A DNA stretch of 64,000 nt from an uncultured Alphaproteobacteria bacterium. GTDB taxonomy: Bacteria; Pseudomonadota; Alphaproteobacteria; UBA828. The notes beneath the pieces were generated by a model. It was not told where the DNA came from. It did not search any database and saw only the letters and a list, made by a program, of their open reading frames with translations. The translations under genes and the position numbers were made by a program. Of this stretch, positions 8,368-40,878 are shown one piece after another. Position 1 is the first letter of the stretch. The number at the start of each line of letters is the position of its first letter. The stretch lies in assembly GCA_913053235.1 (NCBI GenBank), contig CAJXFT010000001.1:2785-66784 (forward strand), read 5' to 3'.

Positions 8368-8368
8368 A

Positions 8369-9040
8369 TCAGCGCAGCTCCCGAATGACCGAAAACGCCT
8401 CGGCCGCGACACAGCCGACGCTGGCGCCGCGCAGCGCGGCAAGAGCGCGGACGGCTTCCTCGGAACGGGCATGCGGAGACGGCCGCATCTCGCTCGCATA
8501 GGCAGCAAGCGCGCACATTTTGGCCTCCATATAAGCCGTCACATCGACGAACAGATTGGGGCGAAATGCGGCATGCGCGCCGCTCACCGCCCATTCGGTG
8601 CTGGACACCGTCTCAAAGGCATAGATGGCGCGCACCGCGGCACCGGGCAGCGGGCGGCAGGCGGTCGCCACCGCCTCGCAGGCAATGCGGTGATCTATGT
8701 TGAGGTCGCCGCCATGATGGGTATAGACGATTTCCGGCGCCACGCCTTCGACCACGGCTTCGATGGGTTTGACGATATCCAGCATTTCCATGCCGTCGAG
8801 GCGATTGTCGGGGAAACCGGCGAAGCGCGGCGCCTCGGCGCCGACCGCGCGCGCCGCCTGCCCGGCCGCACCCTCCAACGCTTCCAGCGCGCCGGCCGCG
8901 ATAGCGCCGCGCGCCGCCAGGCCGGTGGCGAGGATCAATATATGCACCCGATCCCCGGCGTCGGCGTGGCGTGCCAGCGTCGCGCCGCAACCGAGAATCT
9001 CATCATCCGGATGCGCCGCCACAACGAGAATTTCGCTCAT
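8369..9040 (-). CDS. PIG-L/LmbE-family N-acetylglucosaminyl deacetylase
   Basis: MSEILVVAAHPDDEILGCG signature (HPDDE). ATG at 9040 overlaps the upstream stop. Confidence 0.8.
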   Translation of the reverse strand: MSEILVVAAHPDDEILGCGATLARHADAGDRVHILILATGLAARGAIAAGALEALEGAAGQAARAVGAEAPRFAGFPDNRLDGMEMLDIVKPIEAVVEGVAPEIVYTHHGGDLNIDHRIACEAVATACRPLPGAAVRAIYAFETVSSTEWAVSGAHAAFRPNLFVDVTAYMEAKMCALAAYASEMRPSPHARSEEAVRALAALRGASVGCVAAEAFSVIRELR

Positions 9041-9807
9041 GCCGCCACCTTGCGGCCGATCGCCGCCATGACATGCTTCTCCAAAACGAACTCGCCGTGA
9101 CGCTCGAAATGAGCCGCGAGATCGCGCGCCACCGCGGCCTCGTGCGGGGCGCTGAAGAATGTCGAATTGCGCCAATAGTCGAGCAGCGCGGCGGGGCTCG
9201 GATAGCGCACCGGGTTGACGAATGTTTGCGTTTCCAGGCGCAGCTCACGCGCCATGACGGGCAGAACGGTTTCGGTCATGAAATCGGCGGCGCTGGAAAG
9301 CACCGCCGGCGGAACTTCAAAATGGCGCCGCAGAAGCTCGAACAGGGCGGAATTGTTGCTGCCATGCGGGCCGACGATCAGCAGCGCGCCACCCTCGGCG
9401 CAGCGTGCCATCATTTGCGCCATAATCCGCGCCGCATCTTCGGCGTAGTAGAGGCCGTAAAAACACGAGACCAAATCGAACTTGCGCTCGACGATGGCGG
9501 CGTGCGCGAAGGCCGTTTCCATGGCTGTCTCGACGAGGTCGCAAGAGACATCGAGCGCATCGAGACGCGCTTGCGCCTTGGCCAGCGATGCGGCGGATAT
9601 ATCGACCCCGACCAGATCCGTGACATCCGGCCGGGCGCCGTAGAGCGCCAATTGATTTCCGGTGCCGCAACAGATGTCGAGCACGCTGGCAAACGATAAT
9701 TGGTCCAGTATGGCACCGACCCAGCCGTCGAAATCGGCGCCCGCGAAACGCTTGTTGCCGGCCGCGCGGGCGCTCAGGAAATCACTGTTCGTAGCCCGAT
9801 CGCTCAT
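9037..9807 (-). CDS. Class I SAM-dependent methyltransferase
   Basis: VLDICCGTGNQL motif I and a Rossmann-like fold. ATGA overlaps on both sides. Confidence 0.75.
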   Translation of the reverse strand: MSDRATNSDFLSARAAGNKRFAGADFDGWVGAILDQLSFASVLDICCGTGNQLALYGARPDVTDLVGVDISAASLAKAQARLDALDVSCDLVETAMETAFAHAAIVERKFDLVSCFYGLYYAEDAARIMAQMMARCAEGGALLIVGPHGSNNSALFELLRRHFEVPPAVLSSAADFMTETVLPVMARELRLETQTFVNPVRYPSPAALLDYWRNSTFFSAPHEAAVARDLAAHFERHGEFVLEKHVMAAIGRKVAA

Positions 9808-11363
9808 CGTACCGCCTTCTTCAAAATGCCGGGGAAAGCCGCTTCATCGCCGCCCCGGCTGAGATACCACTTTCCCTCGGGACGATAGCCGGCCGCGGCA
9901 AACAAAGCGTGCGACGCCTGGTTCCCGGCCAGCACTTCGGCGCGCAGTTCGGCCTCGGGCAGAAGGCGGCGCGCCAGCGCCAGCGCCGCGCCGCCAATGC
10001 CCAACCGCCAGCGCTCCGGCGCCACATATATGGAAACTTCGTAAGCGCCACCTTCCATGCCGCTTTCGAGGCGCAATACACCGGCCGGCTCGTGGCCATG
10101 CATTATGATATTGAACAGACAATCAGGATCGCCAAGCCGGCCGTCGAACCAGGCCCGGTGTTCGTCCGCCGAGGGTGCCTCGGGCACGCGGAAATGGCGC
10201 CGTGTGCGTGCATCGCGCTGCCAGGCCAGCAGGCGATCGGCATCGCCGGCGGCGGCGGGGCGCAGACGAATGGCGACGCCATCATGGGCGGCCGGCGGAT
10301 CGAGGGCCGCGATGAGGCGCCCGGCGCCGAGTCCATCGCACAGACAAGCCGCCGCCCGCGCCATCTCGCGCCGCGCCATGCCGTCCTCCAGCAAATTATG
10401 CAATGCATCGATCAGCCGGCCATCGCTGAAATTTCCGGCCCCGTCCAGGACCCCGGCCCCGTCCAGGACAATTGCCGCGCCCGCGCCGCGCAGGCTTTCG
10501 GCCACCGCATGCTGGTTTTCGGCGCTGCATATCACGATCGACGGCAGGCCGAGGCAACAGCGCTCCCAGGCCCCGCCGCCGCCGGCGCCGAGCGCCACAT
10601 CGGCTTTGCACAGCAGCCCGGCGACATCTTCAATCGCGACATGAAGCGACGCCGGAAAGGGCGCCATCGCCGCCTTGGCGCGCACCGCCTCGAGATGAGG
10701 CGCGGCGCCGCCGAGCAATATATCGACCGCGAGTCGCCAATCGGCGCGCGCCAGGATGTCGAGCACCGCCGAGGTGATATTGGTAGGATCGGTGGCGCCA
10801 AAGGAGAGCAGCAGCCGACGCGGCCTGTCATTTTTTTGGCGCCGTACCAGGGCGGTCCGGCGCAGCGCCGCGAACGACGAACGCAACGGAAGATAGGCCG
10901 GACCGAGCAACTGCATGCAGCCTTTAGGGACGAGAGCGGCATAATCGTCATCTCCACGGCATGCCGCCGGGTCGAGCAGCATATCGCAATCATGGCGGCG
11001 GTCGGCGAGATCGTCGAAGGCCAGGATTCGCCGCGCCCAGGGGCGGCACGAGCGCTCGAATACCGCGTCCCTGCCATAATGATCCGTCACCAACAGGTCG
11101 GCGCCCTCGGGCCAGCGCGCGGCCAGCTCGCCCGCTTCCGCCAGCGCGTCGCCGTTCAGTTGCACGGCCGCGATGGCGGCCGGCCAGGGCGACGGCAGCG
11201 CATCACTCGCGCCGCGCCCGCTGACCAGCACGCAGCGCCATCCCGCCGCCGCAAGCGCGCGGGCGAGCGAAAGACAGCGCGCCGCGTGGCCCGCCCCGAT
11301 CGCGGCGGTGGCATCGGCGCGGAATATGGCGAGGCGGGGCTCAGCCGGCATCGGCGCGCTCAC
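9804..11363 (-). CDS. pseG: PseG (UDP-2,4-diacetamido-2,4,6-trideoxy-L-altropyranose hydrolase) fused to a C-terminal GNAT N-acetyltransferase (PseH-like)
   Basis: N-terminal ~350 aa is a GT-B/PseG-like fold (LAIFRADATAAIGAGHAARCLSLARAL ... LGAGGGGAWERCCLGLPSIVI). C-terminal ~150 aa is a GNAT fold (LRPAAAGDADRLLAWQRD...IYVAPERWRLGIGGAAL). Confidence 0.75.
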   Translation of the reverse strand: MSAPMPAEPRLAIFRADATAAIGAGHAARCLSLARALAAAGWRCVLVSGRGASDALPSPWPAAIAAVQLNGDALAEAGELAARWPEGADLLVTDHYGRDAVFERSCRPWARRILAFDDLADRRHDCDMLLDPAACRGDDDYAALVPKGCMQLLGPAYLPLRSSFAALRRTALVRRQKNDRPRRLLLSFGATDPTNITSAVLDILARADWRLAVDILLGGAAPHLEAVRAKAAMAPFPASLHVAIEDVAGLLCKADVALGAGGGGAWERCCLGLPSIVICSAENQHAVAESLRGAGAAIVLDGAGVLDGAGNFSDGRLIDALHNLLEDGMARREMARAAACLCDGLGAGRLIAALDPPAAHDGVAIRLRPAAAGDADRLLAWQRDARTRRHFRVPEAPSADEHRAWFDGRLGDPDCLFNIIMHGHEPAGVLRLESGMEGGAYEVSIYVAPERWRLGIGGAALALARRLLPEAELRAEVLAGNQASHALFAAAGYRPEGKWYLSRGGDEAAFPGILKKAVR

Positions 11364-12098: not shown

Positions 12099-13694
12099 AT
12101 GGCCAATATAATTCTGCTCATCATCGACACCCTGCGCTATGACCGCATGGGCATTTCGGGCTATCGTCCGGCGGTGACGCCGAACCTCGACGAACTTGCG
12201 GCCGAAGGCATCAACTGTGCCAATTATTTTTCCAATGGCTGCGTCACGAGCTTCGCCTTTCCCCCCATGTTCACCTCTTCCCTGCCGTTCGATTTCGGCG
12301 GCTATGACGAAGGCATTCGCCACCGCCCGATTTCGTTTCCCGAGCTTCTCCAACAGGACGGCTTCCATACCTACGGCCTGGTCACCGGCCATCCGTGCTC
12401 GTCCCATTTCGGCTACGGTCGGGGCTTCGACCAATTCCTCGACCTGATCGACCTTTACCAATGGTTCCGCTCGATCTATGTCGCCGCGCTGAGCGAGCCA
12501 ATCGCCACCTGGCAGGCGGGCAAGCTCAGCGAAGCCGAGTTGATGGCCATATTCGTGCCCAAATTCGGCCGTGTGTTGATGGATACGGAAAATTACATCG
12601 CCGCTCTCGATCGCGCCGGCGCACCGCCGAGCGGCCGCCCCCGGGCGCCCTTGCTGGCCGCCGTGCGGGCCGAACGCAAGCTGCTCGACGCGGCTCCCGG
12701 CGCCTGCCTCGAAAAAATCGCGGCGCTTAAATCCGATTATCAATTTGCCCTCGGCGAGAACGGGCTCAGCCGACGCACGCAACGGCGCATCGAGCGGCGC
12801 AAGAAACTGTTCAGCCGGTTTAACAAGCGTATTCACCTGCTTTCCAACCGCCGCGCCTTCGATGCCGGCACCGTCAACAGGCAGTTTGACGGCTTTCTGG
12901 CGCGGCGTTCGGAGCAGCCGTTTTTTGCCCTCCTGCATTATTTCGATCTGCATGAGGCGAAGCTGCAAATCTCCAAATTGCTGGCCCGACCGACGCCGCG
13001 GCGCATCAGTGACGGAATTCGCGCCTACCGCCGCATCTCCAAGGGGCGCCCGCCCGAACAGCGCGGCGTTCTTTACGATATGGGACTCGCCCTGGTCGAC
13101 GAGCAGCTCGGCGCGCTGCGCCACATGCTCAGGCGCCACGGCGTGTCCGAGGATACGGTCATCGTCATCACCGGCGATCACGGAACCGAAGCCGGCGCGC
13201 CGCATCGCGGCCTTGGCAGCAATCTTCCGCGCCTGTTCTATGACGAGCATCTTCACGTTCCGCTCATCGTCAACGGCCGCGGCATCGCGCCGCAAACCAT
13301 CGACGCGCTTTCGAGCCATCTCGACCTGGCGCCGACGATTCTGGATATCGCCGGAATCGCGCCACCGGAAGTCTTTCAGGGCATTCCGATCGCGGCGCGG
13401 CGCGAACATCCCGAAACGCTGGTGTGGAGCGAGAATGCCGGCCTCGGGCGCTGCGACATCGCCACCAAGCCGCTTTATTTCAGCGTCCGTTCGGCCGGCC
13501 ACCGAAGCATCGCGCGGGCCGAGAATTTCGTCCCCGAGCTGGGCGAATTTTACGACCTCCAAAACGACCCCTTCGCGAAGGACAATCTCGCCGGCGGCGA
13601 GCAATGCTCTGAAATCCGCGAGTCTCATCTCGCCGCTATCCGCAAACGGCTGGAGACGTTGCGCGCCCAGTCGAAGGGGCGGGACGCGGCATAG
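12099..13694 (+). CDS. Sulfatase-like (alkaline-phosphatase superfamily) hydrolase/transferase; the canonical C-x-P-x-R arginine is absent
   Basis: IILLIIDTLRYDRMG...TPNLDELAAEGINCANYFSNGCVTSF... sulfatase N-terminal architecture. This is the only plus-strand gene inside the 32-kb minus-strand array. The antisense ORF 12030..14099 is Arg-rich junk. Confidence 0.75.
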   Translation: MANIILLIIDTLRYDRMGISGYRPAVTPNLDELAAEGINCANYFSNGCVTSFAFPPMFTSSLPFDFGGYDEGIRHRPISFPELLQQDGFHTYGLVTGHPCSSHFGYGRGFDQFLDLIDLYQWFRSIYVAALSEPIATWQAGKLSEAELMAIFVPKFGRVLMDTENYIAALDRAGAPPSGRPRAPLLAAVRAERKLLDAAPGACLEKIAALKSDYQFALGENGLSRRTQRRIERRKKLFSRFNKRIHLLSNRRAFDAGTVNRQFDGFLARRSEQPFFALLHYFDLHEAKLQISKLLARPTPRRISDGIRAYRRISKGRPPEQRGVLYDMGLALVDEQLGALRHMLRRHGVSEDTVIVITGDHGTEAGAPHRGLGSNLPRLFYDEHLHVPLIVNGRGIAPQTIDALSSHLDLAPTILDIAGIAPPEVFQGIPIAARREHPETLVWSENAGLGRCDIATKPLYFSVRSAGHRSIARAENFVPELGEFYDLQNDPFAKDNLAGGEQCSEIRESHLAAIRKRLETLRAQSKGRDAA

Positions 13695-13731: not shown

Positions 13732-15897
13732 TCATTCGGAGAAAACCGGCTGTCCGGCATTGAGCTCGGCCCGCAACATGTCCTGAATGACGTCACGCAT
13801 GAACCAATCCGGCAGCGCCTCGCCGGCGCGCAGCGCCTGGCGCATGTCGGTGCCGCTGATCGGCTCCAGCGTTTCAGCCGCGCCGAGCGCCACATACGCC
13901 TCGGCTTTCGGATCATAGCCGATAGCGTCGAAGAAAATCGGCGTGAGGCCGATATCGCCCAGACTGTCGAACAGGGCGGGAATTTCCTCTGCCGCATAGA
14001 AATCGCCGACGCCGGTATGGTCGCGCCCGACGATGAAATGGGAGCAGCCCATGTTCTTGCGGCAAAGCGCCGTGAAAACCGCCTCGCGCGGGCCGGCATA
14101 GCGCGAATAGGTGGCGAAGCTGCCGAGCACCACCTTGCCCGCCGGGTAAAGCCCCCCGTCCAGCATCATCTGATAGCTGCGCATGATCGGCTCGGGCAGA
14201 AAATCGCCTGATTTCTTGGGCCCGATGACGGGGCTTACATAAAGGCCATCGGCGCCGCTCCGCTCCAATGCGCTGAGCTGAATATGTTCATGCACCCGGT
14301 GAATGACATTGCGGGTATGAAAGCCGACCACCCGGTTCCAACCCTTATGCGAAAAGACGAAGCGCGTCTGCGCCGGGGTAAGTTCGAATTGGCGATAGGG
14401 CGACGGCAGGCGCGCGAACAGGGTGATATCGCCGCCGACAAGATGGCCGCCGCCGCCGGCCAAGCGCGCCACGCCGGGATGATCCATCGAGGCGGTACCG
14501 AACCAGGGCTCGACAACGGCGTCGAAATCGAGCGCATAGACCTCGGCGACGTCGAGCAGCGCATGCGCGACGCCGGCCTCGCTCTTGAGCAGGATGCGCT
14601 CGCCGGGGTGAATTTCGCCGGCCCGGACGCTGTCGACCTGAAGCACGATCGGCAGGGTCCAGGCCTCGCCTTGCGGCAGGCGGTTGTCGCGCAACACCGA
14701 GCGCAACATTTCCTGGGTCATGAATCCGGTGAGCGGCGAATAGGTGCCGTGGGCGATCTGCTGGCAGTCCATCAACACGTTGTGCTCAACGGTGAGGCTG
14801 GCGAGGCGGGCGAGTTCCGCCGCCGCCGGCGCCTCCTGCTCGCGGTGCACAAGCCGGCCGCCATGCGGCTCGACCAGGAGCGACGCCGATTCGAGATCAT
14901 AGCCGCCCGCCGCGGCTTCGGGGCCGGCTTCGTATTCGCGAATCAATTTTACGATCATGCTGGCGCAGCCGATGGGATGCGCGCCGATCGCCGTTTCCGC
15001 CGCCAGCACCAAGCCGTCGACGCCATCGACGAGCGTGTTGTAGACGTCATTGACCTCGGCGCGGGTCGGGCCGGGCGCGGTGATCATCGATTCCAACAGA
15101 TTGGTCGCCACATAGACCTTGCGTCCGGCCACCTTGGCGATGCGCACAATATGTTTTTGCAATGCCGGAATGCGCTCGACCGGCAATTCGCGCGACAGGT
15201 CGCCGCGGTCGATCAGCAGGCCATCGGATTTCGCCGCGATCTCGGCCAGATTGTGGAGGCCGTTGCGGCACTCGATTTTCGAAATCACAAATGTCTCGGC
15301 GCCGACGATCTCGCGGATGGCATCGACATCCGTTTCCCTGTTGGCGAAAGACAGGGCGGCATGTTCGAGGCCCTTGTCGCGGCCGATCCGGAGCGCGGCA
15401 CGGTCCTTGTCCGTCAATGGCGGCATATCGATCGGCCGCTCGACCGTTACCGCCTTGTTCTGACCGATGACGCCGCCGGTCAACACGCGCATCATCGCGC
15501 CCGCCGCCGTTATCTCGATCACCTGCACCAGCACGGCGTTGAAGTCGATGCTGATAAAATCTCCGACTTCGAGAGAATCGACGATGCCATGGGGGTAGAA
15601 GTTGAGGGTTTGGGCATCGCCGGCCACGGTCTCTCGGCGGGCGCAAATGACGGTGCTCTCCTGTACCGCCACACTGCCTTGCGCCAGGCTGCCGGTGCGA
15701 ATTTGCGCGCCTTCGCTGTCGAGGCAGACCGGCACCGCGCTGTGCGATTGAATGAAATCGATGACCGCGGCGACGTCCTCGAGTTTTGTGTGCGACAGGT
15801 TGATGCGGAACAATGTCGCGCCGAGCTCCTCGAGGCGGTTCAACACCCTTTTGTTCATCGAAGCGGGGCCGAGGGTGCAGAATAAATCTTTAGCCAT
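13732..15897 (-). CDS. Fusion protein: N-terminal pyruvate-kinase catalytic barrel (no C-terminal allosteric domain) + C-terminal complete ATP sulfurylase (sulfate adenylyltransferase)
   Basis: aa 1-~335: CTLGPAS...FRINLSHT (PK K+ site), ISKIECRNG (PK IENxxG), IDRGDLS, and ATNLLESMITAPGPTRAEVNDVYNTLVDGVDGLVLAAETA (PK Mg/PEP site). aa ~340-721: PUA-like domain, VGFHTRNVIHRVHEHI (ATP sulfurylase QTRNxxHRAHE motif) and FIVGRDHTGVG (GRDHAG motif). Confidence 0.85.
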   Translation of the reverse strand: MAKDLFCTLGPASMNKRVLNRLEELGATLFRINLSHTKLEDVAAVIDFIQSHSAVPVCLDSEGAQIRTGSLAQGSVAVQESTVICARRETVAGDAQTLNFYPHGIVDSLEVGDFISIDFNAVLVQVIEITAAGAMMRVLTGGVIGQNKAVTVERPIDMPPLTDKDRAALRIGRDKGLEHAALSFANRETDVDAIREIVGAETFVISKIECRNGLHNLAEIAAKSDGLLIDRGDLSRELPVERIPALQKHIVRIAKVAGRKVYVATNLLESMITAPGPTRAEVNDVYNTLVDGVDGLVLAAETAIGAHPIGCASMIVKLIREYEAGPEAAAGGYDLESASLLVEPHGGRLVHREQEAPAAAELARLASLTVEHNVLMDCQQIAHGTYSPLTGFMTQEMLRSVLRDNRLPQGEAWTLPIVLQVDSVRAGEIHPGERILLKSEAGVAHALLDVAEVYALDFDAVVEPWFGTASMDHPGVARLAGGGGHLVGGDITLFARLPSPYRQFELTPAQTRFVFSHKGWNRVVGFHTRNVIHRVHEHIQLSALERSGADGLYVSPVIGPKKSGDFLPEPIMRSYQMMLDGGLYPAGKVVLGSFATYSRYAGPREAVFTALCRKNMGCSHFIVGRDHTGVGDFYAAEEIPALFDSLGDIGLTPIFFDAIGYDPKAEAYVALGAAETLEPISGTDMRQALRAGEALPDWFMRDVIQDMLRAELNAGQPVFSE

Positions 15898-16675
15898 GTT
15901 GCTCGTTTCTCACATTCGGTTGTTGGTTGAGGGCGCCGAAAGGGGCCGCCTTGGTGGCGCCGTGACGCGAGAGATTGATCTCCGCGATTTCGGGATGGTC
16001 GGCGAGAACGCCCAACACGGCGGCCATGGCATGGCCTTCCGCGCCGCCCGGGAGGTGGCGGAACAAGGCTTTGAGGAAGGCGTAATCCTCGGGGTAATCG
16101 AGGGTCCAGCGCGTCGTGCCCGGCAGGCCCGGCGGCGCCGCAAGGTTGGCGCGCGCTATTTCGGCCGCCTCGCGCATCCACGGCGAGACATGCTCGCGTT
16201 CGAAGCTGCGCGCGGCATTGGCGTCGGCGGCGTTCAGCGCCGCCCGGGTGAAGGCTTCGCAGTCGAGCCCGTGCGGCCAGGAGGGCGGCATATTGTTGGC
16301 CGCGTAGCCGGCGCCGGTGCGCTTGCGCAGATCGAGCAGCGCGCCGCATATCGCCGGGTCGATGGCCGGGCAATCGCTGGTCACGCGGAGCACCACATCG
16401 GCTTCCAGCTCTTGCGCCGCGCCGGCGTAGCGCGCCAGCACATCCTCGGCCGGGCCGCGATAGGCCGCGGCGCCGTGGCGCGCCGCTTCCGCCGCCACGA
16501 CATCATCCTCGGCCAGATCCGTCGTCGCGCAACACACGTCATCAACGCCCGCTATGGCCGCGCACCGCGTCAGCACATGGCCGAGCACGCTTTGCGCCGC
16601 CAGCGGCAGAAGAATTTTCCCGGGCAGGCGTGTCGATCCCATGCGCGCCTGAACGATAGCGACCGTCCGTCCCAT
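15890..16675 (-). CDS. Acylneuraminate/pseudaminate cytidylyltransferase-like (SpsF/PseF family)
   Basis: MGRTVAIVQARMGSTRLPGKIL. ATG at 16675 overlaps the upstream stop as ATGA. A TTG 14 codons upstream is an alternative start. Confidence 0.75.
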   Translation of the reverse strand: MGRTVAIVQARMGSTRLPGKILLPLAAQSVLGHVLTRCAAIAGVDDVCCATTDLAEDDVVAAEAARHGAAAYRGPAEDVLARYAGAAQELEADVVLRVTSDCPAIDPAICGALLDLRKRTGAGYAANNMPPSWPHGLDCEAFTRAALNAADANAARSFEREHVSPWMREAAEIARANLAAPPGLPGTTRWTLDYPEDYAFLKALFRHLPGGAEGHAMAAVLGVLADHPEIAEINLSRHGATKAAPFGALNQQPNVRNEQHG

Positions 16676-17877
16676 CAGCCGACGCAAGAAAGCACCGCAT
16701 CGATGACGCGCCGGCAATCGGAATCGGTCATTGCCGGAAACAACGGAATGGTAAGGGCGGCATCGTAATAGGCCTCGGACTCGGGAAAATCGCCCCGCTT
16801 GTAGCCAAATTTTTCCCGATAGTAGGGCTGTAGGTGAAGCGGAATGTAATGCACATGCACGCCAATCTTGCGGGCGCGAAGCTGCTCAAAAATCCGCCGC
16901 CGGCTTTTGCGCAAACGGTCGCGCCGCAGGCGCAGCATATAGAGGTGCCAGGCGCTCTCGCGGTCGCTCTCCTGATGCGGCGGAATGAGCAGTTCGGACT
17001 GGCCGAAGGCGGCGCTGTAGCGCGCCGCGATCTCGCGGCGGCGCGCCAGAAAGCCGTCGAGCTTGGCCAATTGGCTGAGCCCGAGGGCGCATTGGATATC
17101 GGTGACGCGGTAGTTGAAACCCAATTCCTGCATTTCGTAATACCAGGGTGCTCGGTCGCTCGCATTGGCTTTGGCATGGCCGCCGCCATCCTTGTCGGCG
17201 GCCTGGGAGGCGAGACGCATGGCGGCGCCGTCATTGGTGATGCCATGGGTGCGGAAGAGGCGCAGCGCGGCGGCGAGATCGTCATCGTCGGTGGCGATCA
17301 GGCCGCCCTCGCCCATCGCCACGGCTTTGACCGGATGGAAGGAAAAAATGCTCATCGCCGCCAGCGAGCCGACGCTACGGCCCTTATAGGTCGCTCCCAG
17401 GGAGTGCGCGGAATCCTCGATAACCGTGATGCCGTGGCGCGCGGCGATTTCGTTGATCTCGTCCATGTCGGCCGGCTGGCCGGTATAATCGATCGGGATG
17501 ATGGCCTTGGTCTTGGCCGTGATGGCGGCCTCGAGCCTGGCTGGATCGAGGCAGTAGGTATCGCGACGGATATCGGCAAATTTAACCTCGGCGCCGAGAT
17601 AAAGCGCGCAATTGCCGCTCGCCGCGAAGGTGATCGGCGCGGTGATCACCTCATCGCCCGGGCCGACGCCCGCGGCATAACAGGCGCAGTGGAGCGCCGC
17701 CGTGCCGGTGGCGACGGCAATGCCGTGGCGGGCGCCGACACGCGCCGCGACGGCCGCCTCGAAGGCGGCAATGTTGGGCCCCTGGGTGAGCCAATCGCCG
17801 CGCAATACCTCGACCACCGCCGCGATATCGTCCTCGTCGAGGCTTTGGCGGGCATAGGGAATAAAGGCTTCGCTCAT
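16675..17877 (-). CDS. pseC: DegT-family aminotransferase, PseC-like (UDP-4-amino-4,6-dideoxy-N-acetyl-beta-L-altrosamine transaminase)
   Basis: MSEAFIPYARQSLDEDDIAAVVEVLRGDWLTQGPNIAAFE... is colinear with PseC, including the SIFSFHPVK Lys region. ATG at 17877. Confidence 0.8.
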   Translation of the reverse strand: MSEAFIPYARQSLDEDDIAAVVEVLRGDWLTQGPNIAAFEAAVAARVGARHGIAVATGTAALHCACYAAGVGPGDEVITAPITFAASGNCALYLGAEVKFADIRRDTYCLDPARLEAAITAKTKAIIPIDYTGQPADMDEINEIAARHGITVIEDSAHSLGATYKGRSVGSLAAMSIFSFHPVKAVAMGEGGLIATDDDDLAAALRLFRTHGITNDGAAMRLASQAADKDGGGHAKANASDRAPWYYEMQELGFNYRVTDIQCALGLSQLAKLDGFLARRREIAARYSAAFGQSELLIPPHQESDRESAWHLYMLRLRRDRLRKSRRRIFEQLRARKIGVHVHYIPLHLQPYYREKFGYKRGDFPESEAYYDAALTIPLFPAMTDSDCRRVIDAVLSCVG

Positions 17878-17899
17878 TTTTCTCTCTTGCTTCGCCGCT

Positions 17900-19324
17900 T
17901 CAATCGAAGGCCAGTTCCTGCACGGTTTGCAAATTGCTGTAGCCCGCTTGATCGAGATCGCCGAGAGCGCCGGATTCAAGCGCCGCCTTCAACTCACGCA
18001 CGCCGGCCGCGACATCGGTTTCGATTTCGAAGGCCAGCGCCCCGTGCAGCTTGACGCAATTCACCCGATAGTTTCTCGCATCGACCGAGCTGTTGATTCG
18101 GTTGACGGTGAGGCCGGGAAAAACCGCGCCGACGATATCGCCGATCGCGTTGATGGTGTAGTTCTGTTCGCTGTCGCCGACATTGAAGATCTCGGCGCGC
18201 ACCGAATCGAGCGGCGCATCGAGCACGCCGACGATGGCGCGCGCGACGTCGCCGACATGAACATGGGGGCGCCATTGCTCGCCGCCGAAAAGATCGATGG
18301 CGCCGCGCGTGAGCGCATGTTTGGTCAGGGTGTTGACGACGAGATCGAAGCGCGCCCGGGGCGAGCAGCCATAGACGGTGCCGAGCCTGAGAATCGTCGG
18401 CGCGAACAATTGATTGGGCCGGCGCGCCATCGACAGCACCGCCTCCTCGACCATTAATTTGATCTTGCCGTAAAGGCTGACCGGCGCGGTCGCGGAGAGC
18501 TCGGTCAGAAACTCATCGGGGTTGGTGCTGGCGCCGTAAACGCTGCATGAGGAGGTATAGACGAAACGGTTGATGTTGAGATATTCGCAGAGCTGGGCGA
18601 GCGCCGTAACGGCGAGATAATTTGTCTTCAGCGCCGTTTGCGGCGCCTGGCTCACGGCGGGATCGCCGACCAGCTCGGCCAGATAGACGACCGCATCGAC
18701 GCCCTCGACCACCTCGACGAGTGTGTCTATGTTCTTGGCGTCGCCGGTCACGATATCGATTTCGCCGGCCAGCCCGCTCAGCGATTGGCGGCCATAGAGA
18801 AAGACATCGAGCACCCGCACCGCCCAGCCGTCGACGAGCAGTTTGCGCACCAGAACCGAGCCTATGTAACCGGCGCCGCCGACCACCAGAACGGTGCGCC
18901 GGCGCGGCGAAAAATCGCTGCCGGGCGCGCGCATCAACAGCGACTGCACGTCGATCATGCCGAGCGGACGGCGCCCGCCATCGACCACCGGAACCATGAC
19001 ATGCATCTGTTCGGTGGCGTAGAGCGCCTTGAGGCGGGCGAGCGCCGCATCGGCGCTTTCAGCGCTCTCCAGCTCGCTCCCGAGAATGGTCACGGGCGTC
19101 CTGTTCATCACCTCGTCGAGAGCCGTCGAGCGCACCTGGCCATTCAGAATGGCGCGCCGCAAATCGCCGGCGGAAACGATTCCACAAAGCCGCCCGTCAT
19201 CACCGACAACCGCGACAATCGCGCCGTAGCGATCGCCCAGACTCTCAAACGCCTTGGATATGGGTTCATCCGGGCCAAGCGCGGGCAACGGCGCAAGTCG
19301 GTCGATTTTCGATATTTCAGTCAT
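17900..19324 (-). CDS. CBS-domain pair fused to an NAD-dependent epimerase/dehydratase (extended SDR)
   Basis: N-terminal ~130 aa form tandem CBS domains. The remainder has VVGGAGYIGS Rossmann, YTSSCSVYG and YGKIK (YxxxK) motifs. Confidence 0.75.
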   Translation of the reverse strand: MTEISKIDRLAPLPALGPDEPISKAFESLGDRYGAIVAVVGDDGRLCGIVSAGDLRRAILNGQVRSTALDEVMNRTPVTILGSELESAESADAALARLKALYATEQMHVMVPVVDGGRRPLGMIDVQSLLMRAPGSDFSPRRRTVLVVGGAGYIGSVLVRKLLVDGWAVRVLDVFLYGRQSLSGLAGEIDIVTGDAKNIDTLVEVVEGVDAVVYLAELVGDPAVSQAPQTALKTNYLAVTALAQLCEYLNINRFVYTSSCSVYGASTNPDEFLTELSATAPVSLYGKIKLMVEEAVLSMARRPNQLFAPTILRLGTVYGCSPRARFDLVVNTLTKHALTRGAIDLFGGEQWRPHVHVGDVARAIVGVLDAPLDSVRAEIFNVGDSEQNYTINAIGDIVGAVFPGLTVNRINSSVDARNYRVNCVKLHGALAFEIETDVAAGVRELKAALESGALGDLDQAGYSNLQTVQELAFD

Positions 19325-19366
19325 TGTTCAATGCTGGGTTCAATGCCGGCGGCGGCGGCGAATTGC

Positions 19367-19810
19367 TCAACGCGGAATCACCGTCCACGGGTTCCAGTAG
19401 TCGAACGGGTAACGCACATCGTCATCGAGGCTTTCGCCGAGCGCCACGGTGGAAAAAAACAGCAGCCGCGTGTCGGGCCTGAGCGTCATGAAGCCATGGG
19501 CATAGCCGCCGGGCACATAGAGCACGCCCGGCCGGTCTTCGGCGAGCACGAATTTATTGATTTCCAGCGCCGCATCGGGCGCCTCCCAATCATCGACCTC
19601 GACCGCCGCCACGAGCGCCGCGCCGCTCGCCACATAGACATATTTGGCTTCCTGTTTGTGGGCGTGCCAGGCGCGGACAAAGCGCGTTTCATGATTGGAG
19701 ACGACATAAAACCGGCGCACCGCCGCCATGTCGAAATCATTGCAAAATTGCAGCTTGCCGCGATCGTCCATAGCGGCGCCACCGGCGATAAAATTAAGGT
19801 CGCTGTTCAT
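19367..19810 (-). CDS. WxcM/FdtA-like cupin (dTDP-4-keto-6-deoxyhexose 3,4-isomerase family)
   Basis: 147-aa cupin with RFVRAWHAHKQ...VPGGYAHGF resembling the FdtA family. Confidence 0.65.
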   Translation of the reverse strand: MNSDLNFIAGGAAMDDRGKLQFCNDFDMAAVRRFYVVSNHETRFVRAWHAHKQEAKYVYVASGAALVAAVEVDDWEAPDAALEINKFVLAEDRPGVLYVPGGYAHGFMTLRPDTRLLFFSTVALGESLDDDVRYPFDYWNPWTVIPR

Positions 19811-19835
19811 CCGGTCCTTCCAATGTCGGCTTTTT

Positions 19836-21674
19836 TCATTTCACATCTTCGCCCGGGTCCGAAGCGGCGTTCATATCCACCGGCCCTTGCTGCTTGGCGA
19901 AGGCCGAGGCGTACCAGCCGCCGCGCGCCAACAGCTCCGCGTGGCTTCCCGTATCGCTAACACAGCCGGCCTCCATAATCACGATTTGATCGGCGATCGC
20001 GACCGTCGACAGGCGATGGCCGACGACGATAATGGTCATGTCGGTTTCCCGGCGAATGCGCTCCAGCGCGGCGCGAAACGCCGCTTCGGCGTCGGCGTCC
20101 AGATTGCTCGTCGGTTCGTCGAGAACGAGAATCGGCGCGCCGCGCACCAGGGTGCGGGCGAGGTCGAGACGCTGACGCTGGCCGCCTGAAAGCCGCACGC
20201 CATCTTCACCGACCGGTGAATCATAACCCTCGGGCAGGGCCTCGATAAACTCATGGGCACCGGCGAGGCGGGCGGCGGCCTCGATATCGCGCCGCGCCGC
20301 GCCCGCCCCGCCATAGGCGATATGCGCCGCGGCGCTGGCATTGAACACTTGCGGTGTCTGCGGCGCATAGGCGATGGCGGCGCGCAGGCTCTTCAATTCA
20401 AATTCGGACTGCGGCGTTCCATCGAAGAATATTTGCCCGGCGCTGGGCTCGCGCAGCAGCGGCAGGAGGTCGATCAAGGTCGATTTACCGGCGCCCGACG
20501 GCCCCACCAGGGCGGTAATACGGCCGCTCGGAATGGTCAGGTCGATGCCGTTCAGGGCAGCCGTATTGGCGCCGCCATAGGCGAAACTGACGGTTTGGAA
20601 TTCGATGCCGGCGTGAAGTGCCTTGAAGGGCCGCACGCCGGATTCACTTTCGCGCGCCCGCGCCATCTGGTCGAAGCGGCGTTGCAGCGCCGCGAGGCTG
20701 CCGACGAACGACACCAGAGCCTGGCGCGTGCCCATCACTTCGCGCACCCGCGGCATCAGCCGGAGAATGGCGGCGAGGAACAGGCCGATCTCGCCGAGCG
20801 ACAATTCGAAGACGATGAAGCCGAAATAAAGAAAGCCCAGGATCGCCACGGCGCCGAGAATTTCGACCACCGCCGCGACCCGTGCGCCGAGCGCCAGAAC
20901 GTGCACATAGCGGCCATATTGGCGCCGTGCAATCTGCTTCATGGTGCCGGATTCGGCCACTTCGGTACCGGACAGGCGAATGAAGCGGTGCGATTTGAGG
21001 CGCTCCACAAGGAAGCTGCCAAGCGCCTGATTGGCCTCGGTAACTTGTTCACCGACATCGCGGCTCTTGCGGATCATGCCGCGCACGCCGAGCGCGGCGA
21101 GCGCCACGATGGGAAGAATCGCCAGCGCCATCGGCGGCGAAACCGCCAGCGCCAGTCCAAAATAGGACAGTATAAGAATCGTTCCGCCGATCAGAGTGAG
21201 GACCTGAAAGACGCAGCTCGACGCGCGTTCCGCCTCGGTCGTGAAATCGTTCACGGCCTGGCCAAGCTCATCCCCCTCGCTATAGGAGAGGCGGGTGTCG
21301 AGATAGCGGCGAAAGGCCCGCTCCCGCACCTCACGGATGACGCCAAAGCGCGCCGCACCGGCATAAACCGTGCGGCCATAAACAAAGCCGATGCCGGCGC
21401 ACAAAAACAACAGCGACGCCAGCAACAGCGAAGGCAGCGAGATCTCTATGCCGAGCCCGTCAAAAACCGCGACCAGAAACCGCCAAATGGTCGATTGGCC
21501 GGCCAGGGCGCCGACATCGCCGCTGCCTTCGAGATAATCGAGAATCGGCAGAATCATGCCGATGCCGATGCCCTCGAACAACACGCTGACGAGGTCGAGG
21601 CAGAGTATCGCCAGCGCCGTCGAACGCGCCAAGCCGAGTTGGCGGCAAGTGTCGAAGAATGCTCGGGGAGACAT
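19836..21674 (-). CDS. ABC transporter, fused permease/ATP-binding (MsbA/PglK-type exporter)
   Basis: Six predicted TM helices followed by an NBD with Walker A GPSGAGKST, signature LSGGQRQRLDLAR and Walker B ILVLDEPTSNLDA. Confidence 0.85.
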   Translation of the reverse strand: MSPRAFFDTCRQLGLARSTALAILCLDLVSVLFEGIGIGMILPILDYLEGSGDVGALAGQSTIWRFLVAVFDGLGIEISLPSLLLASLLFLCAGIGFVYGRTVYAGAARFGVIREVRERAFRRYLDTRLSYSEGDELGQAVNDFTTEAERASSCVFQVLTLIGGTILILSYFGLALAVSPPMALAILPIVALAALGVRGMIRKSRDVGEQVTEANQALGSFLVERLKSHRFIRLSGTEVAESGTMKQIARRQYGRYVHVLALGARVAAVVEILGAVAILGFLYFGFIVFELSLGEIGLFLAAILRLMPRVREVMGTRQALVSFVGSLAALQRRFDQMARARESESGVRPFKALHAGIEFQTVSFAYGGANTAALNGIDLTIPSGRITALVGPSGAGKSTLIDLLPLLREPSAGQIFFDGTPQSEFELKSLRAAIAYAPQTPQVFNASAAAHIAYGGAGAARRDIEAAARLAGAHEFIEALPEGYDSPVGEDGVRLSGGQRQRLDLARTLVRGAPILVLDEPTSNLDADAEAAFRAALERIRRETDMTIIVVGHRLSTVAIADQIVIMEAGCVSDTGSHAELLARGGWYASAFAKQQGPVDMNAASDPGEDVK

Positions 21675-23636: not shown

Positions 23637-23640
23637 TGCC

Positions 23641-40871: not shown

Positions 40872-40878
40872 TACCAAG

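What the first reader, a model, noticed from the sequence alone, without database searches (positions are those of the whole stretch)
13732..15897. Undescribed fusion: pyruvate-kinase catalytic barrel + complete ATP sulfurylase inside a glycan operon
The first ~335 aa carry the diagnostic pyruvate-kinase (PK) catalytic residues (INLSHT K+ site, KIECRNG, DRGDLS, MITAPGPTRAEVNDV) but lack the PK C-terminal allosteric domain. The rest is a full sulfate adenylyltransferase, with a PUA-like domain, HTRNVIHRVHE and GRDHTGVG. Known sulfate-activation fusions are ATP sulfurylase + APS kinase or CysD/CysN, and I do not recall a PK-sulfurylase architecture. It is the last gene of a nonulosonic-acid operon. 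This suggests a dedicated sulfate-activation module, with the PK domain plausibly regenerating ATP from PEP or pulling the unfavourable sulfurylase equilibrium, feeding sulfation of the Leg/Pse-type glycan. No APS kinase or recognisable sulfotransferase is in the window, so the downstream chemistry is unknown.
Basis: partly seen in the sequence, partly recalled or inferred. Interest (0 to 1): 0.88.

Follow-up and report, generated by a model that had tools for sequence, protein, structure and literature searches.

The report
Pyruvate kinase fused to ATP sulfurylase
This gene really does encode a pyruvate-kinase barrel joined to a complete ATP sulfurylase; the family is widespread but unstudied, sits in surface-sugar gene clusters, and most likely makes activated sulfate while regenerating its own ATP from PEP.

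Summary
Window 13732-15897 (-) is one uninterrupted 721-aa ORF with a PK barrel (no PK_C domain), a roughly 20-residue linker, a PUA_2 domain and an ATP-sulfurylase domain.

It is not an assembly chimera. At least 80 species genomes from more than 12 phyla carry the full-length fusion, and a further 268 candidate hits were not inspected. About 68 clusters at 50% identity have the architecture. All PK phosphoryl-transfer and metal residues are invariant in 80 of 80 proteins. The ATPS motifs are kept, except that QxRN reads HxRN.

Comparative context supports a dedicated sulfate-activation role. An APS kinase and/or a Sulfotransfer_3 gene lies beside the fusion in 63 of 80 loci. Related architectures include PK-ATPS-APSK, PK-APSK, ATPS-PK (reversed order), full-length PK-ATPS, and split operons.

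The most likely mechanism is that ATPS makes APS, a separate APS kinase makes PAPS plus ADP, and the PK barrel converts ADP plus PEP back to ATP. This mirrors engineered PAPS cascades. No enzyme activity has been tested.

The 64-kb window has no detectable APS kinase or sulfotransferase. The convergent neighbour is a sulfatase-like protein with Thr in place of formylglycine.

I found no paper on the fusion; databases call it "pyruvate kinase". I rate it a new variant of a known kind, of moderate to high interest.

The parts
13732..15897 (-). Complete gene for the 721-aa PK-barrel / PUA_2 / ATP-sulfurylase fusion. It is identical to GenBank MDP6475599.1, which is named 'pyruvate kinase'.
   Evidence: ORF; domains; identical public protein and its name.
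14971..15885 (-). Pyruvate-kinase A+B barrel domain (residues 5-309) with no C-terminal allosteric PK_C domain. Catalytic and metal residues R31, N33, S35, D60, R67, K148, K207, E209, D233 and T265 are present.
   Evidence: Pfam PF00224, E 9e-67. Alignment to P. aeruginosa PK 7oo1. All listed residues are invariant in 80 of 80 fusions. Foldseek rmsd about 2.7 A to PKM2.
14872..14925 (-). Variable inter-domain linker (residues 325-342).
   Evidence: pLDDT is below 50 for residues 329-337. Column conservation is 0.41, against 0.71 in the two catalytic domains.
14413..14871 (-). PUA-like N-terminal domain of ATP sulfurylase (residues 343-495).
   Evidence: Pfam PF14306, E 4e-36.
13771..14391 (-). 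ATP-sulfurylase catalytic domain (residues 503-709). It carries HxRN (FHTRN, H527 in place of the usual Gln), HRVH (H533/H536) and GRDHTG (624-629).
   Evidence: Pfam PF01747, E 5e-63. Alignments to 8a8d, 1v47 and 1r6x show Q in the solved enzymes. H527 occurs in 77 of 80 fusions.
15890..16675 (-). Upstream CTP_transf_3 cytidylyltransferase (261 aa). Its stop overlaps the fusion's start by 8 nt, so it belongs to the same transcription unit.
12099..13694 (+). Convergent neighbour: a 531-aa sulfatase-family (alkaline-phosphatase superfamily) protein. It has an invariant Thr (T49) where sulfatases carry the formylglycine Cys/Ser, and no CxPxR motif. It is a candidate partner of the module, but its role is unknown.
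   Evidence: Pfam. PDB alignment places T49 opposite the sulfatase Cys. Family alignment. Found next to or near the fusion in 10 of 80 loci, and translationally coupled to it in L086.
16675..21674 (-). Upstream genes of the same minus-strand run: DegT aminotransferase, CBS-epimerase/dehydratase, a dTDP-sugar-isomerase-like gene and an ABC exporter. This is the sugar-nucleotide part of the operon.
   Evidence: The same gene order occurs in L089, where separate APSK, ATPS and PK genes replace the fusion.

Best explanation
The gene encodes a bifunctional sulfate-activating enzyme dedicated to surface-glycan modification.

Proposed steps:
1. The C-terminal PUA plus ATP-sulfurylase half makes APS and PPi from ATP and sulfate.
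2. A separate APS kinase phosphorylates APS to PAPS and releases ADP. This kinase is adjacent or fused in many relatives. It is not in this window and is presumably encoded elsewhere in the genome.
3. The N-terminal pyruvate-kinase barrel uses PEP to convert that ADP back to ATP on the spot. This resupplies both ATP-consuming steps and keeps ADP from trapping APS kinase in its dead-end E-ADP-APS complex.

The net reaction is sulfate + ATP + PEP -> PAPS + PPi + pyruvate. The activated sulfate is then transferred to the glycan made by the surrounding cluster, here a nonulosonic-acid-containing capsule or LPS-type polymer.

Shown by computation: the architecture, the retention of catalytic residues in both halves, strong purifying selection on both halves, and recurrent linkage to APS kinase and sulfotransferase genes.

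Inferred: every enzymatic activity, the direction of flux, and the identity of the sulfated acceptor.
For: 1. Both halves look catalytically competent. Ten PK residues for PEP, metal or ADP binding are invariant in 80 of 80 fusions. The ATPS RN, HxxH and GRDH residues are kept in 73-79 of 80 (D626 lowest, 73). Mean column conservation is 0.71 in both domains against 0.41 in the linker. The model is confident and the fold matches are good.

2. Genomic context. An APS_kinase gene is present in 35 of 80 loci, directly adjacent in 30. Sulfotransfer_3-type genes are present in 37 of 80, and either one in 63 of 80. TauE/TSUP anion permeases occur in 7.

3. Rosetta-stone evidence that PK belongs with PAPS synthesis:
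- PK-ATPS-APSK triple fusions P0270, P0274 and P0284.
- A PK-APS_kinase fusion without ATPS, P0328, whose PK is 62% identical to this one.
- A reversed ATPS-PK fusion, P0334, and a full-length PK (with PK_C)-ATPS fusion, P0308.
- Split operons: sulfatase-like, ATPS, full-length PK, APSK in L088; APSK, ATPS, PK in L089, which is syntenic with this window's cluster; barrel-only PK with an ATPS-APSK fusion in L090.
- These PKs are only about 30-35% identical to each other, so PK was recruited several times independently.

4. Biochemical precedent. In vitro PAPS synthesis by PAPSS1 nearly fails without a PK/PEP ATP-regeneration module, because of the APS kinase E-ADP-APS dead-end complex (PMC9885120).

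5. An Omnitrophota relative (L087) has legionaminic-acid-type genes, two sulfotransferase-like genes, the fusion and an APS kinase in a row. Sulfation in nonulosonic-acid clusters is therefore recurrent.
Against: - No activity has been measured for any family member.
- This window (64 kb) and its closest relatives L001-L003 have no detectable APS kinase or Sulfotransfer_3-type gene. The ADP source and the transfer step are therefore unaccounted for locally.
- The PK half scores below the NCBIfam pyruvate-kinase cut-offs (253 bits against 306). It also carries seven family-invariant substitutions near the active site relative to the solved PKs aligned (E62, Q65, D230, S235, R236, N266, A299). 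Its substrate or regulation could therefore differ.
- The ATPS Gln of QxRN, which contacts sulfate in solved enzymes (my own knowledge of the yeast structure), is His in 77 of 80 fusions.
- APS kinase and Sulfotransfer_3 genes are negatively associated across the loci (9 with both, 26 and 28 with one only, 17 with neither; p 0.0015). A simple PAPS pathway does not predict this, although it may reflect lineage-specific cluster types.
- Cells normally have a housekeeping PK, so the selective advantage of a tethered one is assumed, not demonstrated.
Confidence: 0.65

Rival explanations
1. The PK-like barrel is not a plain ADP recycler. It is either a PEP-dependent kinase acting on the sulfur nucleotide (for example APS 3'-phosphorylation, replacing CysC), or an energy-coupling device that drives APS formation with PEP, as the CysN GTPase does with GTP. 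Under this reading, loci without cysC, such as this window, would be self-sufficient.
For: No APS kinase lies in this 64-kb window, near L001-L003, or in the Methyloversatilis locus, which nevertheless has sulfotransferases. Seven invariant family-specific substitutions surround the PK active site. The PK half scores below the NCBIfam PK cut-offs.
Against: The residues that bind ADP and the phosphates in solved PKs (R31, N33, H36, R67, K148) are invariant, which argues for an NDP acceptor. The same PK clade is fused to a bona fide APS kinase domain (P0328, P0270, P0274, P0284) or sits next to one in 30 loci. That would be redundant if PK were the APS kinase. The active-site residues do not differ between loci with and without APSK (80 of 80 invariant).
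Confidence: 0.08
2. The PK barrel is a non-catalytic regulatory or scaffolding domain. It would sense PEP/ADP or provide oligomerisation, analogous to the APS-kinase-like allosteric domain of fungal ATP sulfurylase.
For: The PK_C allosteric and tetramerisation domain is missing. A close relative carries CBS domains instead (P0327). Precedent from my own knowledge: the C-terminal domain of Penicillium ATP sulfurylase is an inactive APS kinase homologue used for PAPS inhibition.
Against: Every catalytic, Mg- and K-site residue is invariant in 80 of 80 proteins across more than 12 phyla. That is more than ligand sensing would need. Unrelated PKs, including a full-length one with PK_C, are linked to ATPS in split operons and other fusions. 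This points to the PK reaction itself.
Confidence: 0.07
3. The ATP-sulfurylase-like half adenylylates an anion other than sulfate, such as phosphate, a phosphonate or selenate, because the sulfate-contacting Gln is replaced by His. The product would not be APS.
For: H527 replaces Q in 77 of 80 fusions, whereas solved sulfurylases have Q. The protein scores below the NCBIfam sulfate adenylyltransferase cut-offs. The window also carries phosphonate genes, a PEP mutase-nucleotidyltransferase fusion and a phosphonopyruvate-decarboxylase-like gene, at 39-42 kb.
Against: The same HxRN type is fused to an APS kinase domain (P0270 reads FHSRN). It is flanked by APS kinase, sulfotransferase or TauE genes in most loci. 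The Arg, Asn, HxxH and GRDH residues are conserved. The phosphonate genes lie 25 kb away, on the opposite strand in a separate gene run, and include their own nucleotidyltransferase.
Confidence: 0.05

Closest known systems
Bifunctional ATP sulfurylase-APS kinase (PAPS synthase; e.g. Aquifex aeolicus 2GKS, human PAPSS1/2)
   Same: It has the same PUA plus ATP-sulfurylase core (2gks E 8e-51) and the same logic of fusing the sulfurylase to an enzyme of the next step. Some relatives of this protein are PK-ATPS-APSK triple fusions.
   Different: The window protein has no APS kinase domain. It scores 235 bits against NF004040, whose cut-off is 669. The fused partner is a glycolytic phosphotransferase at the N-terminus that regenerates a co-substrate rather than consuming APS.
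Stand-alone homo-oligomeric ATP sulfurylase Sat (e.g. Methanothermococcus thermolithotrophicus 8a8d, Thermus 1v47)
   Same: The C-terminal 380 residues align end to end (E 4.5e-79; Foldseek TM 0.94, rmsd 1.7 A). The HxxH and GRDH motifs are retained.
   Different: QxRN reads HxRN, there is an added N-terminal PK barrel, the score is below the NCBIfam equivalog cut-offs, and the gene sits in glycan clusters rather than sulfur-assimilation operons.
Pyruvate kinase (PykF/PykA, PKM2)
   Same: It has the A+B barrel with all catalytic, Mg, K and ADP-contact residues, about 35% identity, and rmsd about 2.7 A.
   Different: The C-terminal effector and tetramerisation domain is absent. Seven invariant active-site-shell substitutions are present. 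The score is below the TIGR01064 cut-off (253 against 306). The genomic context is never glycolytic.
Engineered PAPS-regeneration cascades (ATPS + APSK + PK/PEP, with or without pyrophosphatase)
   Same: The same set of activities is used. PK/PEP is added to avoid ADP inhibition of APS kinase and to regenerate ATP (PMC9885120).
   Different: Those are man-made mixtures of separate enzymes. Here the combination is encoded naturally on one polypeptide or in one operon.
CysDN (GTPase-coupled ATP sulfurylase) and eukaryotic ATPS-APSK-pyrophosphatase fusions
   Same: They share the theme of attaching a helper activity that makes the very unfavourable sulfate activation step productive. This comparison rests on my own knowledge and was not tested here.
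   Different: CysD is not homologous to this sulfurylase. The helper here is PK acting on ADP and PEP, not a GTPase or a pyrophosphatase.

Membership tests
Pyruvate kinase (PF00224 / TIGR01064) | (beta/alpha)8 A domain with inserted B (cap) domain | tested here: met
   Pfam PK covers residues 5-309 against profile positions 6-325 of 328, E 9e-67. Foldseek rmsd is about 2.7 A over about 340 columns to PKM2.
Pyruvate kinase (PF00224 / TIGR01064) | Catalytic Lys, the Mg ligands Glu/Asp, the K+-site Asn/Ser/Asp/Thr, the PEP/ADP arginines and lysine, and the proton-relay Thr | tested here: met
   R31, N33, S35, H36, D60, S/T61, R67, K148, K207, E209, D233 and T265 are kept in 80 of 80 fusions, with position 61 varying only between Ser and Thr. 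The Ser361 equivalent is Ala299.
Pyruvate kinase (PF00224 / TIGR01064) | C-terminal alpha/beta (PK_C, PF02887) effector and tetramer domain | tested here: not met
   There is no PK_C hit. The barrel is followed by a linker and then PUA_2.
Pyruvate kinase (PF00224 / TIGR01064) | Score above the curated equivalog cut-off | tested here: not met
   TIGR01064 scores 253.2 bits against a cut-off of 306.4. All other PK models are also below their cut-offs.
Pyruvate kinase (PF00224 / TIGR01064) | PEP + ADP -> pyruvate + ATP activity | not testable with these tools
   This needs an enzyme assay.
ATP sulfurylase, Sat type (PF14306 + PF01747 / TIGR00339) | PUA-like domain followed by the nucleotidyltransferase catalytic domain | tested here: met
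   PUA_2 E 4e-36 and ATP-sulfurylase E 5e-63. 8a8d aligns over residues 340-710, with TM 0.94.
ATP sulfurylase, Sat type (PF14306 + PF01747 / TIGR00339) | HxxH motif and GRDHAG loop | tested here: met
   H533-R-V-H536 and G624-R-D-H-T-G629 are present. Each residue is conserved in 73-79 of 80 fusions, except T628, which varies (T 53, S 14, A 11).
ATP sulfurylase, Sat type (PF14306 + PF01747 / TIGR00339) | QxRN sulfate/phosphate-binding motif | tested here: inconclusive
   R529 and N530 are kept, but Q is replaced by H527 in 77 of 80 fusions. The same HxRN type is fused to APS kinase in P0270, so it is probably still a sulfurylase.
ATP sulfurylase, Sat type (PF14306 + PF01747 / TIGR00339) | Score above the curated cut-off | tested here: not met
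   TIGR00339 scores 290.9 against 322.95. NF003166 scores 332.7 against 387.
ATP sulfurylase, Sat type (PF14306 + PF01747 / TIGR00339) | Genomic association with downstream sulfate-activation or sulfate-use genes | tested here: met
   An APS kinase and/or sulfotransferase lies within 10 kb in 63 of 80 loci. This is not met in this window itself.
Bifunctional PAPS synthase (ATPS-APSK, NF004040) | APS kinase P-loop domain on the same chain | tested here: not met
   The window protein has no APS_kinase hit, and NF004040 scores 235 against 669. The domain is present only in the triple-fusion relatives.
Type I (formylglycine) sulfatase - for the neighbour at 12099-13694 | C/S-x-P-x-R motif that gives the catalytic formylglycine | tested here: not met
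   Thr49 aligns with the sulfatase Cys. Neither Pro nor Arg is present, and the Thr is invariant in 11 of 11 family members. The metal-binding Asp and GDHG residues are kept.

The most novel reading that the evidence does not exclude
In lineages such as this window that have the fusion but no APS kinase and no recognisable sulfotransferase, the pathway may be PAPS-independent. The PK-ATPS enzyme would make APS with PEP-driven nucleotide recycling. The Thr-nucleophile, sulfatase-like alkaline-phosphatase-superfamily enzyme next to it would take the sulfuryl group directly from APS, through a covalent sulfo-Thr intermediate, and put it on the nonulosonic-acid glycan. That would be a new class of sulfotransferase ('a sulfatase run backwards') and a new sulfation route.

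Supporting hints:
- This sulfatase-like family co-occurs with a Sulfotransfer_3-type gene in only 1 of 10 loci, against 36 of 70 loci elsewhere (p 0.017).
- It is translationally coupled to the fusion in L086.
- A different alkaline-phosphatase-superfamily domain is fused to PK-ATPS in P0310, in a locus with no APSK or sulfotransferase.

Equally possible roles for that enzyme are PAP or PPi hydrolysis, or an unrelated phosphodiester transfer.
Probability: 0.12. Interest if true: 0.9.

Novelty: new variant of a known kind. Interest (0 to 1): 0.6.

Why it matters
1. It would be a natural, single-polypeptide solution to a problem biotechnologists solve by hand. PAPS supply limits enzymatic heparin and chondroitin sulfate synthesis, and PK/PEP ATP regeneration is added to make it work. 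The PK-ATPS and PK-ATPS-APSK proteins are ready-made candidates for that job.

2. The fusion is a compact genomic marker for sulfated surface glycans in more than 12 bacterial phyla, including cultured Methyloversatilis, Mesorhizobium and Ensifer/Sinorhizobium. Bacterial glycan sulfation is little studied in these groups. In this window and in an Omnitrophota relative the marker points to sulfated nonulosonic-acid glycans.

3. Public annotation calls these proteins simply "pyruvate kinase". That can create false glycolysis calls in metabolic reconstructions of MAGs and hides a sulfur-metabolism function.

4. The repeated, independent joining of PK to ATPS or APSK is a clean Rosetta-stone case. 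It shows that ADP removal or ATP supply is a real physiological constraint on sulfate activation.

Tried and rejected
- **Assembly chimera or frameshift.** Rejected. The ORF is uninterrupted, and at least 80 genomes and more than 120 clusters have the same length and domain order.
- **N-terminal half as an HpcH/aldolase or PEP-mutase-type barrel.** Rejected. PK scores E 9e-67 against E 0.078 for the aldolase-type model GarL, and the fold matches PKM2.
- **Degenerate sulfurylase.** Rejected. HxxH, GRDH and RN are retained.
- **Hidden APS kinase or sulfotransferase in the window.** HMMs built from the relatives' neighbours found nothing in any of the six frames. hhalign of the cluster's conserved unknown proteins (538, 419 and 515 aa) against the sulfotransferase and APSK alignments gave probabilities of about 1% or less.
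- **His in HxRN as a signature of PK coupling.** Rejected. Stand-alone HxRN sulfurylases exist without a PK nearby (L091), and a PK-linked split sulfurylase has Q (L088). It is a clade marker.
- **P0310's N-terminal domain as the same family as the window's sulfatase-like neighbour.** Only superfamily-level similarity was found: 40 aligned columns around the DHG metal motif.
- **Terminator or promoter scan around the gene.** Nothing above shuffle expectation.
- **PLSDB annotation of the Ensifer replicon.** No features were available.
- **AFDB fold library.** Not installed.
- **Literature.** Six full-text searches combining pyruvate kinase, ATP sulfurylase or sulfate adenylyltransferase, APS kinase, sulfotransferase, nonulosonic acid and rhizobial sulfated capsule returned no paper describing this architecture.
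Full report
**Observation**

Window 13732-15897 (-) is a single uninterrupted ORF of 721 aa. Its third-position GC is 0.80, like its neighbours.

Pfam finds three domains:
- pyruvate-kinase barrel, residues 5-309, E 9e-67
- PUA_2, residues 343-495, E 4e-36
- ATP-sulfurylase, residues 503-709, E 5e-63

There is no PK_C domain. NCBIfam hits both pyruvate kinase and sulfate adenylyltransferase models, but all scores are below their curated cut-offs. This is expected for a half-and-half protein, and it also means the protein is not an 'equivalog' of either enzyme.

An AlphaFold2 model built on 56 homologues has mean pLDDT 91.4 and pTM 0.85, and only linker residues 329-337 are disordered. Foldseek matches the C-terminal half to the Methanothermococcus ATP sulfurylase 8a8d (TM 0.94, rmsd 1.7 A). 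It matches the N-terminal half to PKM2 and PykF (rmsd about 2.7 A over about 340 columns). No solved chain covers both halves.

**Not a chimera, and widespread**

- The 90%-identity protein database returns more than 120 clusters with the same three domains and a length of about 720 aa, at 58-100% identity.
- A scan of one genome per species (185,579 species) found 348 hits. The best 80 all align over residues about 1-721.
- These 80 come from Alpha-, Beta- and Gammaproteobacteria, Verrucomicrobia, Omnitrophota, Elusimicrobia, Chloroflexi, Actinobacteria, Acidobacteria, Gemmatimonadota, Planctomycetes, Calditrichota, Bacteroidota and Bdellovibrionota.
- Cultured carriers include Methyloversatilis, Mesorhizobium, Sinorhizobium/Ensifer, Pseudaminobacter and Salsipaludibacter.
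- An exhaustive HMMER search of 1.84 billion 50%-identity representatives puts 62 complete PK-ATPS proteins among the top 150, plus variants described below.
- The window protein is identical to GenBank MDP6475599.1, named only 'pyruvate kinase'. The Methyloversatilis homologue WP_029143666.1 has the same name.

**Are both halves functional?**

I aligned the 80 genomic fusions.

PK half:
- Every residue that binds PEP, Mg2+, K+ or ADP in solved pyruvate kinases is kept in 80 of 80, position 61 varying only between Ser and Thr. These are R31, N33, S35, H36, D60, S/T61, R67, K148, K207, E209, D233 and T265. The mapping comes from the HMMER alignment to 7oo1 and from my knowledge of rabbit-muscle PK numbering.
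- Seven further positions differ from the solved PKs aligned and are also invariant: E62, Q65, D230, S235, R236, N266 and A299.

Sulfurylase half:
- R529, N530, H533, H536 and G624-R-D-H627 are each kept in 73-79 of 80.
- The Gln of the QxRN motif is His (H527) in 77 of 80. Solved sulfurylases have Gln.

Mean column conservation is 0.71 in both catalytic domains, 0.61 in PUA and 0.41 in the linker. Both halves are therefore under equally strong purifying selection.

**Genomic context of the family**

I clustered all ORFs of the 80 loci (10 kb on each side) and annotated the recurrent neighbours.

| Neighbour | Loci out of 80 |
|---|---|
| APS_kinase (PF01583) gene | 35 (directly adjacent in 30) |
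| Sulfotransfer_3-type gene | 37 |
| Either of the two above | 63 |
| TauE/TSUP anion permease | 7 |
| Na/H-exchanger-type transporter | 16 |

Examples:
- Methyloversatilis: fusion, sulfotransferase, TauE, HD-domain protein, sulfotransferase-like gene.
- Omnitrophota: legionaminic-acid-type genes, two sulfotransferase-like genes, fusion, APS kinase.

These contexts are polysaccharide clusters, never glycolysis or assimilatory sulfur operons.

**Independent fusions and split operons**

Pfam scans of the length variants among the representatives gave the following:
- PK-PUA-ATPS-APS_kinase triple fusions: P0270, P0274 and P0284 (904-930 aa)
- A PK-APS_kinase fusion without a sulfurylase: P0328, whose PK is 62% identical to the window's
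- A reversed PUA-ATPS-PK fusion: P0334
- A full-length PK (with PK_C)-ATPS fusion: P0308
- A Phosphodiest(AlkP)-PK-ATPS fusion: P0310
- A PK-CBS protein: P0327
- Fourteen barrel-only PKs of 250-358 aa (all but one 324-358 aa)

Split operons also occur:
- L088: sulfatase-like, ATPS, full-length PK, a 260-aa gene, APS kinase.
- L089: TSUP, APS kinase, ATPS and PK, followed by the same ABC exporter, epimerase, DegT, CTP_transf_3, sulfatase-like, TylF ... PIG-L, NeuB, 538-aa order as in this window.
- L090: a barrel-only PK in an operon with an ATPS-APSK fusion.

The PKs in these arrangements are only about 30-35% identical to each other and to the window's PK. That is as distant as housekeeping PKs. 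PK was therefore recruited to sulfate activation several times independently. This is the strongest evidence that the PK reaction itself, rather than a peculiarity of one domain, is what selection wants next to ATPS and APSK.

**Mechanism**

The best-supported reading has three steps.
1. The sulfurylase half makes APS and PPi.
2. An APS kinase makes PAPS and ADP.
3. The PK barrel turns ADP plus PEP into ATP plus pyruvate.

PK cannot shift the sulfurylase equilibrium directly. It can remove ADP, which traps APS kinase in the dead-end E-ADP-APS complex, and it can resupply ATP.

Exactly this is done in engineered cascades. With human PAPSS1, PAPS was 'practically missing' without the PK/PEP module and rose markedly with it (PMC9885120). 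The existence of a direct PK-APSK fusion fits ADP recycling better than any role specific to the sulfurylase. All activities remain inferred. I put this reading at 0.65.

**Rivals**

- **PK as a PEP-dependent APS 3'-kinase or a CysN-like energy coupler (0.08).** It would explain loci without cysC. It is disfavoured because the ADP-contact residues are invariant and the same PK clade is fused or adjacent to true APS kinases.
- **A non-catalytic regulatory barrel (0.07).** It is disfavoured by 80 of 80 conservation of the catalytic residues and by the use of unrelated, full-length PKs in the split operons.
- **Another anion instead of sulfate, because of Q to H (0.05).** It is disfavoured because HxRN sulfurylases are fused to APS kinase (P0270 reads FHSRN) and sit beside sulfotransferases. 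HxRN also occurs in stand-alone sulfurylases without a PK (L091), and one PK-linked sulfurylase has Q (L088). It is therefore a clade marker of unknown significance.

**This window specifically**

The fusion is the last gene of a minus-strand run from about 27.8 kb to 13.7 kb. The run contains:
- a capsule-synthesis gene
- an N-acetyltransferase
- HisF- and HisH-like amidotransferase genes
- a 419-aa unknown gene
- CTP_transf_3
- an ABC exporter
- a sugar isomerase
- a CBS-dehydratase
- DegT
- a second CTP_transf_3, which overlaps the fusion's start by 8 nt

The whole region from about 0.4 to 54 kb is a surface-glycan island with two NeuB genes.

No APS kinase, sulfotransferase or TSUP gene is detectable in the 64 kb. 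The conserved unknown proteins show no profile similarity to sulfotransferases. The syntenic cluster L089 does carry an APS kinase, so the window's organism probably supplies it from elsewhere. I could not check the rest of the genome.

**The convergent neighbour (12099-13694, +)**

This gene encodes a 531-aa sulfatase-family protein. Thr49 occupies the formylglycine position and the CxPxR motif is absent. The Thr is invariant in the family.
- The family is small, about 45 clusters.
- It lies near the fusion in 10 of 80 loci.
- It is translationally coupled to the fusion in L086.
- It co-occurs with a Sulfotransfer_3-type gene in only 1 of 10 loci, against 36 of 70 loci elsewhere (p 0.017).
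- A different AlkP-superfamily domain is fused to PK-ATPS in P0310. That locus also lacks APSK and sulfotransferase genes but has a PHP phosphoesterase.

The protein could be a new kind of sulfuryl transferase, a PAP or PPi hydrolase, or unrelated. One member, P0154, sits in a nonulosonic-acid cluster without any ATPS or PK nearby. This is the basis of the 'novel case' (probability 0.12).

**Comparison with known systems and novelty**

The protein works like a sulfate-activating enzyme of the Sat/PAPS-synthase kind. It fails the strict membership tests for pyruvate kinase (no PK_C, below cut-off), for Sat equivalogs (below cut-off, HxRN) and for bifunctional PAPS synthase (no APSK domain).

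Fusion of ATP sulfurylase to APS kinase, to an APS-kinase-like regulatory domain, to pyrophosphatase, or its coupling to a GTPase are known (my own knowledge). Fusion to pyruvate kinase was not found in six full-text searches. That library does not cover subscription journals.

I therefore class it as a new variant of a known kind. It is a real, widespread, uncharacterised architecture whose likely function is a natural counterpart of an engineering trick. Interest is 0.6.

Noticed in passing
window 12099-13694 (+); also L001-L003, L013, L014, L016/L086, L024, L032, L039, L080, L088, L089: A sulfatase-family (AlkP superfamily) protein has an invariant Thr where sulfatases carry formylglycine, and no CxPxR motif. 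The family is small, about 45 clusters. It recurs next to PK-ATPS, a 261-aa CTP_transf_3 gene and an ABC exporter, and it tends to occur where no Sulfotransfer_3 gene is found (1 of 10 loci against 36 of 70, p 0.017). Its function is unknown. Candidate roles are sulfuryl transferase, PAP or PPi hydrolase, or phosphodiester transferase.
   Followed up: partly
window 39093-42015 (+): Phosphonate biosynthesis genes lie inside the same glycan island. They are a PEP-mutase / NTP_transf_3 fusion (592 aa) followed by a TPP enzyme that looks like phosphonopyruvate decarboxylase. The surface glycan may therefore also carry a phosphonate such as 2-aminoethylphosphonate.
   Followed up: no
window 7315-8508 (-) and 28615-29634 (-); 15890-16675 (-) and 21688-22425 (-): There are two NeuB-type nonulosonate synthases and two CTP_transf_3 cytidylyltransferases. 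There are also two or more DegT aminotransferases, a UDP-GlcNAc 2-epimerase-type hydrolase, HisF/HisH-like genes and an Asn-synthase-like amidotransferase. Together these suggest two nonulosonic-acid pathways, or one heavily decorated one (acetamidino, methyl).
   Followed up: partly
window 14287-14322 (-), residue H527; relatives P0270, P0297, P0308, P0334, P0350: A clade of ATP sulfurylases has HxRN instead of the usual QxRN. It occurs in PK fusions of both orders, in triple fusions with APS kinase, and in stand-alone genes. The significance for anion binding is unknown.
   Followed up: partly
P0310 / L094 7459-10914: A 1151-aa Phosphodiest(AlkP)-PK-PUA-ATPS fusion sits in a polysaccharide locus. 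The locus has a second sulfatase-family gene and a PHP phosphoesterase, which is a possible PAP phosphatase. It has no APS kinase and no Pfam sulfotransferase.
   Followed up: partly
L001-L080 (neighbourhood statistics): APS kinase and Sulfotransfer_3 genes are negatively associated around the fusion: both in 9 loci, APSK only in 26, sulfotransferase only in 28, neither in 17 (Fisher p 0.0015). Sulfotransferase-type loci often carry a 515-aa thymidylate-kinase-like P-loop protein instead. Rhizobial loci carry a 279-aa P-loop protein whose P-loop region aligns to APS kinase (hhalign probability 95% over 33 columns). These may be divergent kinases or sulfotransferases.
   Followed up: partly
window 5688-7304 (-), 22377-23804 (-), 9804-11363 (-): Three conserved proteins of the cluster have no Pfam assignment, or only a partial one: 538 aa, about 419 aa, and 515 aa with only a C-terminal GNAT. 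Counterparts of the 538-aa and 515-aa proteins sit at the same positions in the syntenic L089 cluster, and clustered homologues of all three occur in 4-5 of the 80 loci. No profile similarity to sulfotransferases or APS kinase was found.
   Followed up: partly
window 42027-42524 (-): A NusG-family paralogue (165 aa) is embedded in the glycan island. It is probably an RfaH/LoaP-like operon-specific antiterminator.
   Followed up: no
public records MDP6475599.1, WP_029143666.1, MBI3252145.1: Database names are misleading. PK-ATPS fusions are called 'pyruvate kinase' or 'sulfate adenylyltransferase'. MBI3252145.1, a member of the same 90%-identity cluster as the PK-APSK fusion P0328, is called 'adenylyl-sulfate kinase'. 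This could distort metabolic reconstructions of MAGs.
   Followed up: yes
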